Assembly (NCBI GenBank): GCA_964016885.1
Contig: OZ024750.1
Location: 40,672,001-40,736,000 of the forward strand
DNA length: 64,000 nucleotides
Reading direction: 5' to 3'
Origin: Eledone cirrhosa
Lineage: Eukaryota
The notes beneath the pieces were generated by a model. It was not told the origin of the DNA, ran no database searches, and saw only the letters and a program-made list of their open reading frames with translations. Below are positions 22,615-29,556 of the stretch, one piece after another. Each line of letters begins with the position of its first letter. The stretch's first letter is position 1. The position numbers were made by a program, and so were the translations under genes.

Positions 22615-23056
22615 GTAAGTTATATTTATAACTGTTTTATTTTCATCTTAGCCCTTTCAGGACCACATTTCTAATGAAATACACTCTTTCAATTAGTTAA
22701 TGAACAATTTTGAGCGATTTATTAAAATTATCAATTATTTTATTACTGAGATAGTAACTTAACCCTTTACCAGTTACATTACTCTATATATACTATTGTA
22801 TTTTCACAGTAAAGGCTTTACCTCACATAATATCTCACATAACATCTCGTATACGAGAGACGTGTGTTGACGTGTGTGAACAAGCTCGGCTACCGAGTCG
22901 GATTTACTTACTCAAAAAGTGAGTTTTGATTAATTTTTTTATACTGTAATATACGTTAACCCCTTGCCTTGGTCGTCAAACTTTGAGTTTATTTATTTTC
23001 GCCCCTTTTTGGGGCGAATTTTCCAGTTAAAAATTTATTACGGCAAACTAATAGAA

Positions 23057-24784
23057 ATGGACGGAATTTTCACATCTCATCCTAACGTGAAAGCCACGCC
23101 CCCTAAGAAAGGTGATACAGAGAAGCTAGAAGCACAAGGCTCTAAGTCTTCCCTCCTGACTTCTGCAAAAGAAACATGGAACACGGAATTAAAAGAAAAA
23201 TTTGTAAAAATGGGTGAAAACCCAGAAAGTCACATAAACGCAGACAAAAACAACAACGACAATAACAGCAATAGTCACAACACCAACCAAGGAAAAAATA
23301 ACGATAACACCAAACAAAGCGAACCCACTACTGGTGCCTCCTTTGCACAGGCGGTCCGGAAAACACAAACCTGCAAGCAACTGGACATTACAACTCTGAG
23401 AGAAAAGATGAAGGAAGCGAAACAGTATGTAACTTTCAAAGAAGGAGGAGACTTCACAATCACCTCCCCACAAGAAATCAAAAGAGACACGACGCTAAGA
23501 ACGATATCTTTCAGAACAATTTCCAACATAACAAGGAAACCAACTCAATTATCCCAAAAAGAGATTGAGCTGGTCCTAAAAAATGTGTGGAGTGATATAT
23601 CGTTCATACAAAAAGGGCCACTCTATGGGAATATAACGGTCCTAATGAAGGATCAATTGACGGCCAGGAAATACTCTGTGGCACCAATTGTTTCCAAGCT
23701 ACATACATTTTTCCCCACATATTTAGGGAAAAGAACGCAGAAGATAAGGGTCTCCGGAATCCGGCCAAATGCATGCATTTCCTGGGTACTAACAGGATTT
23801 TTAGAAGACGAGGACGGAATCCTCTCAGTAGGAGAAGTCACCACAGACGTTTTCGGCGGTTTGAGCGTGGAGGTTCTGGTCCAAATGAGACCAGAACGAA
23901 TAGCTAGAATACCACAGAGGGTGTCCCTCGATGGAGAAACATTTATATATATTTCAGCCGAGGGTAGGAGGCCCATATGTTACTACTGTTCAAGCAGGGG
24001 TCATCTAAGGGCTGCTTGTCCTCAATTGACAAAAAAAAAGGCTCTTTTGCCTACACCCCACACACCACCACTGCCACCACCACCACCACCTCCACCACAA
24101 CAACAACAAAAACAACAGGGAAAAATAACACAAGACACGGCCCCACCCAAAACAACTCCCAAAACACACACAAATACAACAAAACCCCAAAATACACCAC
24201 TACCCGACAGCACGGACGAGGACCCAGCGGAAACGGCACCTAGTGACGAAGAGGGGGAACCCTTCCAACCTGTAAAAAGGAAAAAAAGAAAGCACCACTC
24301 GAACATAAACGAAACAAACACACAACCACCAACAAAAACAAAACAAACAGAACAAACAAAATCCGCCCCACCCCAAAACATAACACATACAACAAAACGT
24401 AAGCACACACAAGAACAACAAACAAACACAACACAAATAAAACAGTATACATACATTAACACAAATAACAAAGAACTAGTAAAAACAATACACAAAGACC
24501 CTTTGGTGGAAACTGAAGGGCAATTCTTTGCAAGCGCGGCCAACAAACCGCATTTAAAAATGATAAGACTCCCAATGGACACCTATGCAAAACTAAGAGA
24601 GAACTTTCCTGAGGACGTGGGGAAAACATGTACTCGACCCTATAACCGCGTCCTCTTGAAACGTTTCCCCACCCACACCTCACCAAACACCCCCACTCCA
24701 CCACAGAACAACACCCCACCAAACAACCCCTCCAATACGCCCATGGATATTGTGCAACCTGCTCCTCAGGAGCCGAACAGGTAG
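23057..24784 (+). CDS. Tx1-like ORF1 (gag-like, CX2CX4HX4C zinc knuckle)
   Basis: First in-frame ATG at 23057; CYYCSSRGHLRAAC knuckle followed by a P/T/Q-rich tail; stop codon 21 bp before ORF2. Confidence 0.88.
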   Translation: MDGIFTSHPNVKATPPKKGDTEKLEAQGSKSSLLTSAKETWNTELKEKFVKMGENPESHINADKNNNDNNSNSHNTNQGKNNDNTKQSEPTTGASFAQAVRKTQTCKQLDITTLREKMKEAKQYVTFKEGGDFTITSPQEIKRDTTLRTISFRTISNITRKPTQLSQKEIELVLKNVWSDISFIQKGPLYGNITVLMKDQLTARKYSVAPIVSKLHTFFPTYLGKRTQKIRVSGIRPNACISWVLTGFLEDEDGILSVGEVTTDVFGGLSVEVLVQMRPERIARIPQRVSLDGETFIYISAEGRRPICYYCSSRGHLRAACPQLTKKKALLPTPHTPPLPPPPPPPPQQQQKQQGKITQDTAPPKTTPKTHTNTTKPQNTPLPDSTDEDPAETAPSDEEGEPFQPVKRKKRKHHSNINETNTQPPTKTKQTEQTKSAPPQNITHTTKRKHTQEQQTNTTQIKQYTYINTNNKELVKTIHKDPLVETEGQFFASAANKPHLKMIRLPMDTYAKLRENFPEDVGKTCTRPYNRVLLKRFPTHTSPNTPTPPQNNTPPNNPSNTPMDIVQPAPQEPNR

Positions 24785-24805
24785 GTCCTTCCTCTTTTAA
24801 CCAAC

Positions 24806-27800: not shown

Positions 27801-28243
27801 TGGGTAGAGATCCTTTGAATAAGATCTGTCCGAGATGCGTGCATGATGACGAAACCGTTGCGCACGCATTCGTACACTGCCCAGGCATTGCTGACCTGTG
27901 GGGCTATGTGGAACGACTACTGTCGAGGGTGGGACCAATCCGGTTGACCACCGAGTCCATTGTCACGATCAAACCGCCTCCCCCTTTCAAAAACGAAGGA
28001 GAGGCGGTTTTTCTCTGTGTGGTAGCCATGGCTAAAGAAGTTGTATGGTGGACGAGGCTGAAAGGGCTGAGGTCAGACACCTTTCTCTCCGGCCAACAAC
28101 TGGTCCCCTTTTTCAAATACCATTTTAAAAGAAGGATCAGAATGGAGAGAGAGGTGCTCTACCCCAGCAAGTTTTATGAAAGGTGGGTGAAAGTAGGGAG
28201 AATGGCCAGAGTGAATGGGTCTTCTCTCTATATCAGCCTGTAG
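24806..28243 (+). CDS. Tx1-like ORF2: AP endonuclease + reverse transcriptase + C-terminal CCHC
   Basis: APE motifs CLNVRG, GDWN, YLDRVL, SDH; GPGYWKLN linker; RT motifs KSPGLDG, FRPITLLN, DQSKAFDRV, RQGCPLS, YADD; zinc finger CPRC...HAFVHC. Confidence 0.95.
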   Translation: MADIRVGCLNVRGLGLSWKQGKLLSDLRSHRMDVMAICESRISSEHQLAPLFDDCEIFASLCQPGGGGGVVVLLRKHLGLAIQKVHLDPEGRLVVLDVGSSESGALRLIAVYAPFWAARPEYFQRLETFLGTSRSLLLVGDWNGILDARWDYVGACANRGGCKSLKRLIGRFDLADRYRLDFPTVPLWTWTNRSGTSRSYLDRVLVRENDRDTFSCPKMFMVDYSDHKLVTCIANLDRTHRQGPGYWKLNLSLPRSKAYSKRISTLVKQSLTGAIVNNRWWSSLKRAIRIESIGFSQELARDRNKTERELVDRVEEAIRSGNVAGVLASRMALDQFFEVKHEGCVVRSKIRALGNEGAKAVSWARVTEAKSGNKSTIRSLKDQDGRVILEPGQMCAAFQRHFARLFERGGAPGETMDFNPYLDGLPRLSDAEAKSCERTISAAEIGAALSQCGKRKSPGLDGLPYELYVAMPDLFSDILEAVYCNWQQNGRIPSSVTKGVVTLVRKDENKGDDISNFRPITLLNTELKILAKVLAKRLALVVGNLVGEAQTCAIPSRSIHDNLHLMRYIIERVGNEPGFGGALINLDQSKAFDRVDHRYLDAVLAAAGFGPVFRGWIAAMHSSNVCSRVKVNGHLSEPFQIMRSIRQGCPLSSLLYVLALEPLLRKLERLQGIPLEPGLQKAASAYADDVTVMVSKTSQIGEIGTLLEEYERFTGAKLNRDKSVGLQLGTWRGKPMPSNDVVGRWTEGPVKLLGVWFGPDLQVEKNWNEVTARVFALTQKWAQCKLSLKGRAEVANTYIASVIYYRLTVVPCPVKRLAKMECALFQFLWNKRTPLVRRSICCQHPSKGGLGMPWLQMRKHALRLRHLQVFLTGQPVWAPFVRRAFPRLVSLTELQSWVKQRPRKVGDWHIECAQALTALWKVDPAISGDSTSTFYRGLVRSRCDDALGEALGMDEDELASLFGRTFGPGPMDNFQKSLAWQCYRGALPVRDKLHRHGSLGRDPLNKICPRCVHDDETVAHAFVHCPGIADLWGYVERLLSRVGPIRLTTESIVTIKPPPPFKNEGEAVFLCVVAMAKEVVWWTRLKGLRSDTFLSGQQLVPFFKYHFKRRIRMEREVLYPSKFYERWVKVGRMARVNGSSLYISL

Positions 28244-29556
28244 GTGAAAGAAGAGGAAAAAGAGGAGACGAGGGAAGCACCTACTCTTTGTGCTCCTGAG
28301 GAGAAGGGTTACACATTTTTTCCGGGGTGTGTGCGACCCATGTTAATGCCCCCTCCCTATTGAGGACTTCGTTTGTTGTTGTTATTTCATTGTTATATTT
28401 TTGTACTCGTTAATTATATGTAAACTTCCCCCCTTGTATCTGTCCCTACCTTTTGTGCCCTAGTGGCAAATAAAGAAACCACTCTATATATACTATTGTA
28501 TTTTCACAGTAAAGGCTTTACCTCACATAATATCACACATAACATTTATATTACTCTATATATACTATTGTATTTTCACAGTAAAGGCTTTACCTCACAT
28601 AATATCACACATAACATTTACATTACTCTATATATACTATTGTATTTTCACAGTAAAGGCTTTACCTCACATAATACTGAATCTATGATCTTTTGATATT
28701 TATTTTGAGAACAATACCTTAACATTAGTATGAGTGGCCAGTTACAGCCAGTTTGAAAAGAAAGAGGCGAGAGAATTCTAGCCAGATACGGCCGGTTTAA
28801 ACTGTGCCGTTTAAGATACTATCTCAATGTGGGACTGAGCAAATATCTTCTATCCAGAAACAGTCTTATATGAGCAAGACACAGTCAACTGACCCAACTT
28901 GCCTCTAATGGGACAACCTGTTTAACCCATGCTAGTGGAGGCACATGGCTTAGTGGTTAGAGCATTGGCTTTGCAATCGAAAGGTTGTGAGTTCAATTCT
29001 CGGACCGGGTGATGTGTTGTTTCCTTGAGCAAGACACTTTATTTCATATTGCTCCAGTTTACTCAGCTGTTGAAATGAGATGATAGGACTGGGGTCTCTA
29101 TCATTCCACTGCAGAGTGATCGTGGAGGTGCCACGGCAAAAAAAAAAAGCACCCAGCACTCACTGTAAATGAGGTTGGTGTTAAGAAGGGCATCCAGCTG
29201 TAGAAATCAAGCCAGAATCAGTTCCCGTCCCACCCTTGCAAGCAGGGAAAAGCGGATGTAAAATGATGATGATGATGAGTGTAGAAAATGGACGTTAAAC
29301 GATGATGATATTTATCAATATTTGGTTCAATAGATTAATATTGATGAAGCAGGCAGTGAAGGTTAGCTTAGTGGGTAGAGAGATTAACAACCGTAAGGTT
29401 GTGGGTTTGATTTTCAAACTTGATGATACGTTGTGTTCTTGAGCAAGACACTTTATTTTACATTCCTCCAGTTCACTCAGCTGTAGAAATCAGTCACAAC
29501 ATCACTGGTGCCAAGCTGTATCAGTCTTTGCCTTTCCCTTGAACAACATCATATAT

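What the first reader, a model, noticed from the sequence alone, without database searches (positions are those of the whole stretch)
22763..28801. Site-specific Tx1-clade retrotransposon that targets a 72-bp repeat inside a TTAA MITE
Seen: all four LINE 3' ends are identical, ...AATAAAGAAACC|ACTCTATATATACT (28480/1, 51316/5, 57023/2, 62743/2), and all three visible 5' ends are ...CACATAACAT|CTCGTATACGAG. The flank is always the 72-bp unit ACTCTATATA...CACATAACATTTACATT, which forms the internal array of a non-autonomous element with 14-bp TIRs CCCTTTAGCATTTA and TTAA TSD (empty example at 49214-49507). Two independent MITE loci in opposite orientation are hit at the same nucleotide. Known: Tx1-clade APE endonucleases can be sequence-specific, and Xenopus Tx1L inserts in an internal repeat of the TTAA-flanked Tx1D element. 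Inference: this is an analogous transposon-parasitising LINE with a new target in an invertebrate. Copy 1 has both ORFs intact, so it is a candidate active site-specific RNA-templated integrase.
Basis: partly seen in the sequence, partly recalled or inferred. Interest (0 to 1): 0.92.

Follow-up and report, generated by a model that had tools for sequence, protein, structure and literature searches.

The report
Retrotransposon that targets another transposon
A young, mostly full-length jumping gene of a probable octopus inserts at one exact position inside a short repeat of another transposon, apparently by carrying a small copy of its landing site on its RNA; similar tricks are known in frogs and flies, so this is a new, unusually clean example and not a new principle.

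Summary
Confirmed and extended. The element is a 5.6-kb L1-group (probably Tx1) LINE with intact ORFs. Genome-wide, 256 of 260 exact 3' ends are followed by ACTCTA, the start of a 72-bp unit inside a non-autonomous piggyBac; an autonomous piggyBac with matching ends exists. Near-identical copies lie on different contigs in different unit haplotypes, so most insertions are independent. About 76 of 84 copies keep the 5' end. Full-length copies show no TSD but a precise 7-bp target loss, and the last 23 nt of the upstream unit are overwritten with one fixed sequence (variant in 2 of 71, against 92 of 184 other units). 5'-truncated copies instead show 1-16 bp duplications. Best reading: the RNA carries about 25 nt of target at its 5' end and the cDNA anneals to the upstream unit, as in melanogaster-group R1 and many R2. 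The closest relatives (64-71% identical) sit in (ATT)n, which suggests a recent target switch. Targeting a piggyBac repeat is known (Xenopus Tx1L). Tx1 membership, nicking and expression were not shown directly.

The parts
22759..22780 (+). TTAA site and left terminus of the host non-autonomous piggyBac (TIR with 2 mismatches); its last bases supply the upstream half of the first target site
   Evidence: termini match autonomous piggyBac L142-L150
22781..22818 (+). positions 1-38 of the upstream 72-bp unit: native target DNA (keeps local variants in other loci); holds a TATATATA run at 22785-22792
22823..22845 (+). inferred RNA-borne leader: target-identical tract (unit positions 43-65, boundary about 39-43) that is nearly invariant next to full-length copies
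   Evidence: variant in 2 of 71 against 92 of 184 other units; 1 of 16 where both neighbours vary
22823..22879 (+). possible three-stem RNA hairpin pairing the leader with the element's first bases (tentative)
   Evidence: -19.2 against -8.2 kcal/mol without leader; 78 of 2000 leader shuffles fold as well; not seen in sister families
22846..28480 (+). LINE copy 1, full length, no poly(A) tail; AATAAA at 28469-28474
23057..24784 (+). ORF1, 575 aa: two predicted RRMs and one CCHC knuckle (aa 307-323), then a low-complexity tail
24806..28243 (+). ORF2, 1145 aa: APE endonuclease (N10, E39, Y112, D141, N143, D202, D226, H227 align with L1), RT (YADD), C-terminal zinc finger
28481..28676 (+). downstream 72-bp units (2.7 copies); the inferred first-strand nick lies opposite 28480/28481
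28677..28801 (+). right arm of the host element, lacking its terminal TIR bases and TTAA
49210..49511 (+). empty host element with both TIRs and TTAA on both sides
50894..51315 (-). right arm and units of the second occupied host element
51316..56957 (-). LINE copy 2 (both ORFs interrupted)
56958..57022 (-). 65-bp spacer (one unit minus TTACATT) between tandem copies; the same at 62678-62742
57023..62677 (-). LINE copy 3 (ORF1 interrupted, ORF2 open, 1143 aa)
62743..64000 (-). 3' part of LINE copy 4; the array goes on outside the window (five copies in this host element)

Best explanation
An active or very recently active, sequence-specific APE-type LINE of the L1 group (probably Tx1 clade) that uses the 72-bp internal repeat of an abundant non-autonomous piggyBac as its safe site. 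Steps. (1) Shown by junctions: the first strand is primed at one fixed position, ...TTACATT^ACTCTAT...; that ORF2's APE makes this nick and primes TPRT follows from knowledge of L1, R1 and Tx1L. (2) Shown: full-length copies have no TSD, lack 7 target bases, and sit behind a fixed 23-nt target-identical tract that replaces local variants. Inferred: the RNA begins about 23-27 nt upstream of the apparent element, inside the target unit; the cDNA 3' end anneals to the upstream unit, and the top strand is cut or trimmed at -7 and extended. (3) Shown: 5'-truncated copies, which lack the leader, join after 1-16 bases of the unit (apparent TSD). Inferred: the default top-strand cut lies downstream. 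(4) Inferred from the tree: the family arose from (ATT)n-targeting relatives by a shift from ATT^ATT to ATT^ACT. How the RNA 5' end is made (TATA in the unit, internal promoter, or processing) is open; a start driven by the unit's TATA run is my first guess (about 35%).
For: 256 of 260 3' ends at ACTCTA; the 2 of 4 exceptions that I saw are variant units at the same phase. 30 of 30 loci picked by LINE sequence alone begin ACTCTATAT. 69 of 71 full-length 5' junctions are identical over 10 flank bases. Unit positions 43-65 vary in 2 of 71 adjacent units against 92 of 184 others (Fisher p 1e-14); positions 1-38 vary in 52 of 71 against 116 of 184 (p 0.14). Variants shared by all scored neighbours are kept in 22 of 35 cases at positions 9-36 and 0 of 8 at 41-63 (cases not independent). 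In L088 and L089 the neighbouring units lack 12 bp that the adjacent unit has. No TSD: upstream and downstream units are identical over 1-38 in 15 of 69 loci, as ordinary neighbours are (16 of 63). Six truncated copies join after 1, 2, 6, 9, 10-13 and 16 unit bases. 23 of 74 copies keep both ORFs; median distance 1.0%. Relatives: (ATT)n follows 30 of 30 3' ends and precedes 6 of 6 5' ends. The same split between full-length and truncated junctions is described for melanogaster-group R1 (PMC2718515, section 15).
Against: No RNA or biochemical data. No full-length junction showing a TSD followed by a duplicated leader, which gave the direct read-out in R1, was seen among 71 plus 30 (partly overlapping) 5' junctions. 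Three of nine truncated copies do not fit a short TSD: L067 keeps the full-length-type flank (probably an internal deletion), L135 joins near unit position 40 by microhomology, L074 abuts another repeat. In an array an apparent TSD cannot be told from a join in the upstream unit except at first or solitary sites (L069, L073); in L072 the duplicated bases differ from the downstream unit at one place. Counts rest on an exact 23-mer and so favour young copies; one search had 2183 candidates of which 40 were scored. The direction of the target switch rests on two ATT families in a FastTree tree.
Confidence: 0.8

Rival explanations
1. Same specificity, but no annealing: the element captured 23-27 nt of target as its own 5' end and inserts with a 30-34 bp target deletion made by an upstream top-strand cut.
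For: Gives the same final sequence; L078 has a 3-bp loss with a substitution at unit positions 35-38.
Against: End joining without homology should leave variable scars near positions 39-43; only 1 of 71 loci shows an indel there, and spacing is exact in the others. Truncated copies show cuts downstream, not upstream.
Confidence: 0.1
2. No overwriting: full-length insertion only succeeds at units whose positions 43-65 are already perfect (selection by protein or by pairing).
For: About half of all units (92 of 184) are perfect there, so such targets are plentiful.
Against: The adjacent unit is consensus in 15 of 16 loci where both neighbours deviate, including arrays where the scored neighbours share the variant. 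Truncated copies hit sites with no upstream unit (L069, L073) or a variant one (L072, L076), so the nick does not need that tract.
Confidence: 0.06
3. One or a few insertions spread as cargo of the piggyBac (composite element) or by segmental duplication and gene conversion, without a specific endonuclease.
For: Some neighbours are duplicates: copy 3 and L140 differ by 0.03%; L131 and L133 are tree sisters with shared unit variants. An intact piggyBac transposase with matching ends exists.
Against: 0 of 40 near-identical pairs share flank haplotypes, 65 haplotypes among 71 loci; position in the array varies from first to sixteenth unit; differently truncated copies hit the same base; the host of copy 1 lacks its right end.
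Confidence: 0.04

Closest known systems
Xenopus laevis Tx1L in Tx1D
   Same: APE-type LINE inserted at a specific sequence of a non-autonomous piggyBac (PMC4494074 passages; PMC1950540 passages).
   Different: Invertebrate host and unrelated target. The endonuclease hairpin loop has L1 length and lacks the RDGH extension of Tx1L. Tx1L is recalled to make a TSD of about 23 bp (recalled; the primary papers were not held); here full-length copies make none.
Crocodilian Tx1-Mar and other transposon-targeting Tx1 families
   Same: Tx1 families that prefer Mariner, Harbinger or LTR elements, tandem insertions, and a suggestion of transcription from the flanking target (PMC4494074 passages).
   Different: Those are old (85-87% to consensus) and show preference for regions; this family is about 1% diverged and single-base precise.
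Kibi, Koshi and crocodilian microsatellite-targeting Tx1
   Same: The (ATT)n-flanked sister families in this genome behave like them.
   Different: The focal family has left the microsatellite for a unique 72-bp unit.
Melanogaster-group R1 (Drosophila)
   Same: APE element; full-length copies give a precise short target loss (9 bp there, 7 bp here) through upstream target sequence on the RNA, truncated copies give TSDs (PMC2718515, section 15 and passages).
   Different: R1 clade, 28S rDNA target; direct evidence there from off-target and rearranged junctions, here from overwritten polymorphisms. This ORF2 is L1-like.
R2 elements with upstream ribozyme cleavage
   Same: 9-36 nt of upstream target on the RNA give uniform 5' junctions and inherited short deletions (PMC3774820 abstract and discussion part 1).
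   Different: R2 has a restriction-like endonuclease and an HDV-like ribozyme; no ribozyme was found here.

Membership tests
L1 group of non-LTR retrotransposons (L1 + Tx1) | Two ORFs; ORF2 = N-terminal APE, RT, C-terminal CCHC finger, no RNase H | tested here: met
L1 group of non-LTR retrotransposons (L1 + Tx1) | ORF2 closer to L1 than to other LINE types | tested here: met
   best PDB match human L1 ORF2p, E 2e-53 over aa 4-857; R2 3e-23; only L1 and R2 ORF2 proteins appeared
Tx1 clade | RT phylogeny groups with Tx1L, Keno, Dewa, Kibi, Koshi and not with L1 | tested here: inconclusive
   No named Tx1 reference came from three homolog searches. In a 99-sequence RT tree (3 of 102 dropped) it falls in a clade (support 0.94) whose named members are animal elements, apart from plant L1; vertebrate L1 was not in the tree.
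Tx1 clade | ORF1 with RRM and CCHC knuckle instead of the L1 coiled coil-RRM-CTD (feature recalled) | tested here: met
   model pLDDT 78 matches tandem RRM proteins; one knuckle, Pfam E 0.007, below cut-off; no match to the ZCCHC3-type RBDs of fish relatives
Tx1 clade | Frequent target-sequence specificity | tested here: met
   PMC4494074
Tx1L family proper | Tx1D target and extended endonuclease loop | tested here: not met
   loop T189-S199 has L1 length; the target is a local 72-bp unit
piggyBac (host element) | TTAA TSD, CCC...GGG termini | tested here: met
   49210-49511 and other copies
piggyBac (host element) | Autonomous partner with matching termini | tested here: met
   transposases with 561-aa open frames; left end 17 of 18 identical, right end matching in L155, L159, L160; mobilisation itself not testable
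R2-type ribozyme-processed elements | HDV-like ribozyme at the 5' end | tested here: not met
   no Rfam match near threshold; one implausible candidate from a rough descriptor of my own
Sequence-specific endonuclease | APE domain nicks the target in vitro | not testable with these tools
   needs protein

The most novel reading that the evidence does not exclude
A currently active L1/Tx1-group element that borrows its promoter from the target: the TATA run of the upstream 72-bp unit starts the RNA near unit position 40, so each copy carries a 25-nt homology arm, folded into a 5' hairpin with its own first bases, that redirects the top-strand cut and yields about 90% full-length, precise insertions. 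This package, with a few endonuclease changes (YAPTG to YAPFW, NRIGSS to NRSGTS), arose recently from an (ATT)n-targeting ancestor. That would be a natural, minimal route to precise full-length integration on the L1 scaffold.
Probability: 0.3. Interest if true: 0.8.

Novelty: new variant of a known kind. Interest (0 to 1): 0.58.

Why it matters
How site-specific LINEs finish the second strand, and how their endonucleases change target, are open questions with a bearing on RNA-only gene insertion. This family offers many young, intact copies, a polymorphic target that records which bases came from the RNA, and relatives 64-71% identical with another target: a ready pair for domain swaps. It also shows that homology-guided 5' joining, described for R1 and R2, probably arose in the L1 group as well.

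Tried and rejected
Long-TSD model (38-65 bp): rejected, upstream and downstream units do not match more than neighbours. Ribozyme: Rfam gave two sub-threshold hits at E 1.4 and 2.3; descriptor scan nothing credible. Leader hairpin covariation: sister 5' ends gain only 1-2 kcal/mol from an (ATT)n leader, and two other 25-nt windows of the unit fold slightly better than the true leader, so the hairpin stays a hint. Expression: no RNA holder listed. Contigs of four runs confirmed the element in organism A and many 80-90% relatives, but gave no empty allele that could be assigned to this locus. Named Tx1 references: not obtained. Literature: seven searches listed no description of this family; the Octopus vulgaris repeat paper counts 13 recently active L1-Tx1 families but has no occurrence of 'target' or 'nested' (PMC13282606 passages; its supplements not read). 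PMC9004415 passages gave nothing relevant. Repbase and Dfam could not be searched, and the primary Tx1L papers were not held, so an earlier entry is possible. Earlier scan findings: none.
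Full report
Observation. Copy 1 spans 22846-28480; copies 2-4 lie in tandem on the minus strand, 98.9-99.4% identical to it, separated by 65-bp spacers. ORF2 carries APE, RT and zf-RVT domains; its catalytic residues align with human L1 ORF2p, the best PDB match. The ORF1 core folds like tandem RRMs followed by one CCHC knuckle. 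The genome is 3.0 Gb; the closest named homolog is from Argonauta (68% over 41% of the query), so the host is probably an octopod (inference).

Specificity. An exact 23-nt pattern of the LINE end occurs 260 times, and 256 times with ACTCTA behind it. I saw two of the four exceptions; both are variant units at the same phase. All 30 loci fetched by LINE sequence alone begin ACTCTATAT, and all but two (L004, L030) go on through at least most of a unit. The genome holds 31,711 exact empty junctions, so chance is about 5e-6 to 3e-5 per insertion. These counts favour young copies: the DNA search had 2183 candidates and scored 40.

The host element. It is a non-autonomous piggyBac: TTAA on both sides, CCC termini, and an autonomous family with open 561-aa transposase frames whose two different ends match its two ends. 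The target phase first appears right behind the left TIR, whose last ten bases equal the end of the unit.

Independence. I fetched 80 of the first 100 listed 3' ends, including all 17 among the first 84 that lacked a listed 5' pattern. 71 have the 5' end. By hand pairing, corrected, 76 of 84 copies keep it; 266 exact 5' patterns genome-wide agree. 23 of 74 copies keep both ORFs, and the median pairwise distance is 1.0%. Twelve copies on seven contigs form 40 pairs with at most 3 substitutions, and none shares a flank haplotype. Flanks outside the host differ in 18 of 18 right and 20 of 20 left ends found. Some neighbours are duplicates (copy 3 and L140; L131 and L133), so the tandem array of locus 2 counts for less than five events.

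How it joins. The polymorphic target records the origin of each base. The unit next to the 5' end varies like any other over positions 1-38 (52 of 71 against 116 of 184) but hardly at all over 43-65 (2 of 71 against 92 of 184, p 1e-14). After dropping seven neighbouring copies the paired counts are 29 loci with only the farther unit variant against 0 with only the adjacent one. Where both neighbours deviate, 15 of 16 adjacent units are still consensus. The adjacent unit is not a copy of the downstream one (identical over 1-38 in 15 of 69, as 16 of 63 for ordinary neighbours), so there is no long TSD; TTACATT is missing in all 71. Six of nine truncated copies instead join after 1-16 bases of the unit, two of them at sites with no upstream unit; three do not fit (L067, L074, L135). 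I read this as an RNA that starts about 23-27 nt inside the upstream unit, whose cDNA anneals to the target. Drosophila melanogaster-group R1 shows the same split: precise 9-bp loss for full-length copies, TSDs for truncated ones, explained by upstream target on the RNA (PMC2718515, section 15 read). Many R2 elements do likewise (PMC3774820, abstract and first part of the discussion). Against: no rearranged junction that would show the leader directly was found, and no RNA data exist.

Origin of the leader. No ribozyme was found. The unit has a TATATATA run 30-38 nt upstream of the boundary, which would suit a polymerase II start (inference from general promoter spacing, recalled). The leader can pair with the element's first bases in a three-stem hairpin whose outer pair is position 43, but the control is weak (78 of 2000 shuffles) and sister families give no covariation.

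Relatives. About 60,000 first-look candidates of this lineage exist in the genome. The 30 loci read end in a similar AATAAA-GAAA motif followed by (ATT)n; six fetched 5' ends are preceded by (ATT)n, and the elements often stand in tandem. Their ORF2 is 64-71% identical. In the RT tree the focal family is sister to the ATT family L204 (0.986), inside a clade (1.0) with the ATT family L205, P0001 and the Argonauta protein. A switch from ATT^ATT to ATT^ACT is the simplest reading; the targets of P0001 and the Argonauta element are unknown. APE differences lie next to the active-site tyrosine and in the hairpin loop, a loop that affects nicking in L1 (PMC1950540 passages).

Comparison and verdict. 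It works like Xenopus Tx1L in its choice of host and like melanogaster-group R1 in its 5' joining. L1-group membership is met; Tx1 membership is likely but was not tested against named references. Transposon-targeting Tx1 families are known (PMC4494074 passages). Seven literature searches listed neither this family nor homology-guided 5' joining for a Tx1 element, but Repbase, Dfam and the primary Tx1 papers were out of reach. Verdict: real, well supported, a new variant of a known kind; interest 0.58.

Noticed in passing
L171-L206: Very abundant sister LINE families (64-71% ORF2 identity, many long open frames) flanked by (ATT)n on both sides, often in mixed tandem arrays; not found described in my searches.
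   Followed up: partly
L142-L150, L152, L153, L157: Young autonomous piggyBac family of about 2.6 kb with a 561-aa transposase frame; a second family with CCCTTTCGTTACC ends (L154, L156, L158, L167).
   Followed up: partly
window 21094-21789 (+) and 32067-32693 (-): Two nearly identical 3' fragments of another LINE with ATG-repeat tails (RTE-like by recall; no Pfam hit); a shorter piece near 29700-29885.
   Followed up: no
window 16784-16897, 18726-19210, 37702-38277, 42441-43195: Four more empty or partial copies of the host piggyBac, with up to 9 units: seven in 64 kb with those of the finding.
   Followed up: partly
L040, L042, L081 upstream of the LINE: The same other element (possibly an LTR end with gag-like sequence) abuts the 72-bp unit exactly at its first base in these loci.
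   Followed up: no
L030 and L065 downstream of the LINE: Only 14-16 unit bases follow, then a Helitron-like end (label recalled).
   Followed up: no
L080, L136, L117, L067: Internally deleted copies that keep both ends; none was seen twice.
   Followed up: no
window 56842-56869 and 62562-62589; L017: Copies of locus 2 share a 28-nt poly(T) expansion in the 5' UTR, a marker of local descent.
   Followed up: partly
window 36051-36535, 39626-40146, 40275-40836, 45669-46192, 49676-50383: Unrelated minisatellites with periods 88, 31, 41, 99 and 59.
   Followed up: no
P0002-P0087: A large group of 39-55% identical ORF2 proteins, nearly all from unnamed ENA assemblies, forms the next clade; hosts and targets unknown.
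   Followed up: no
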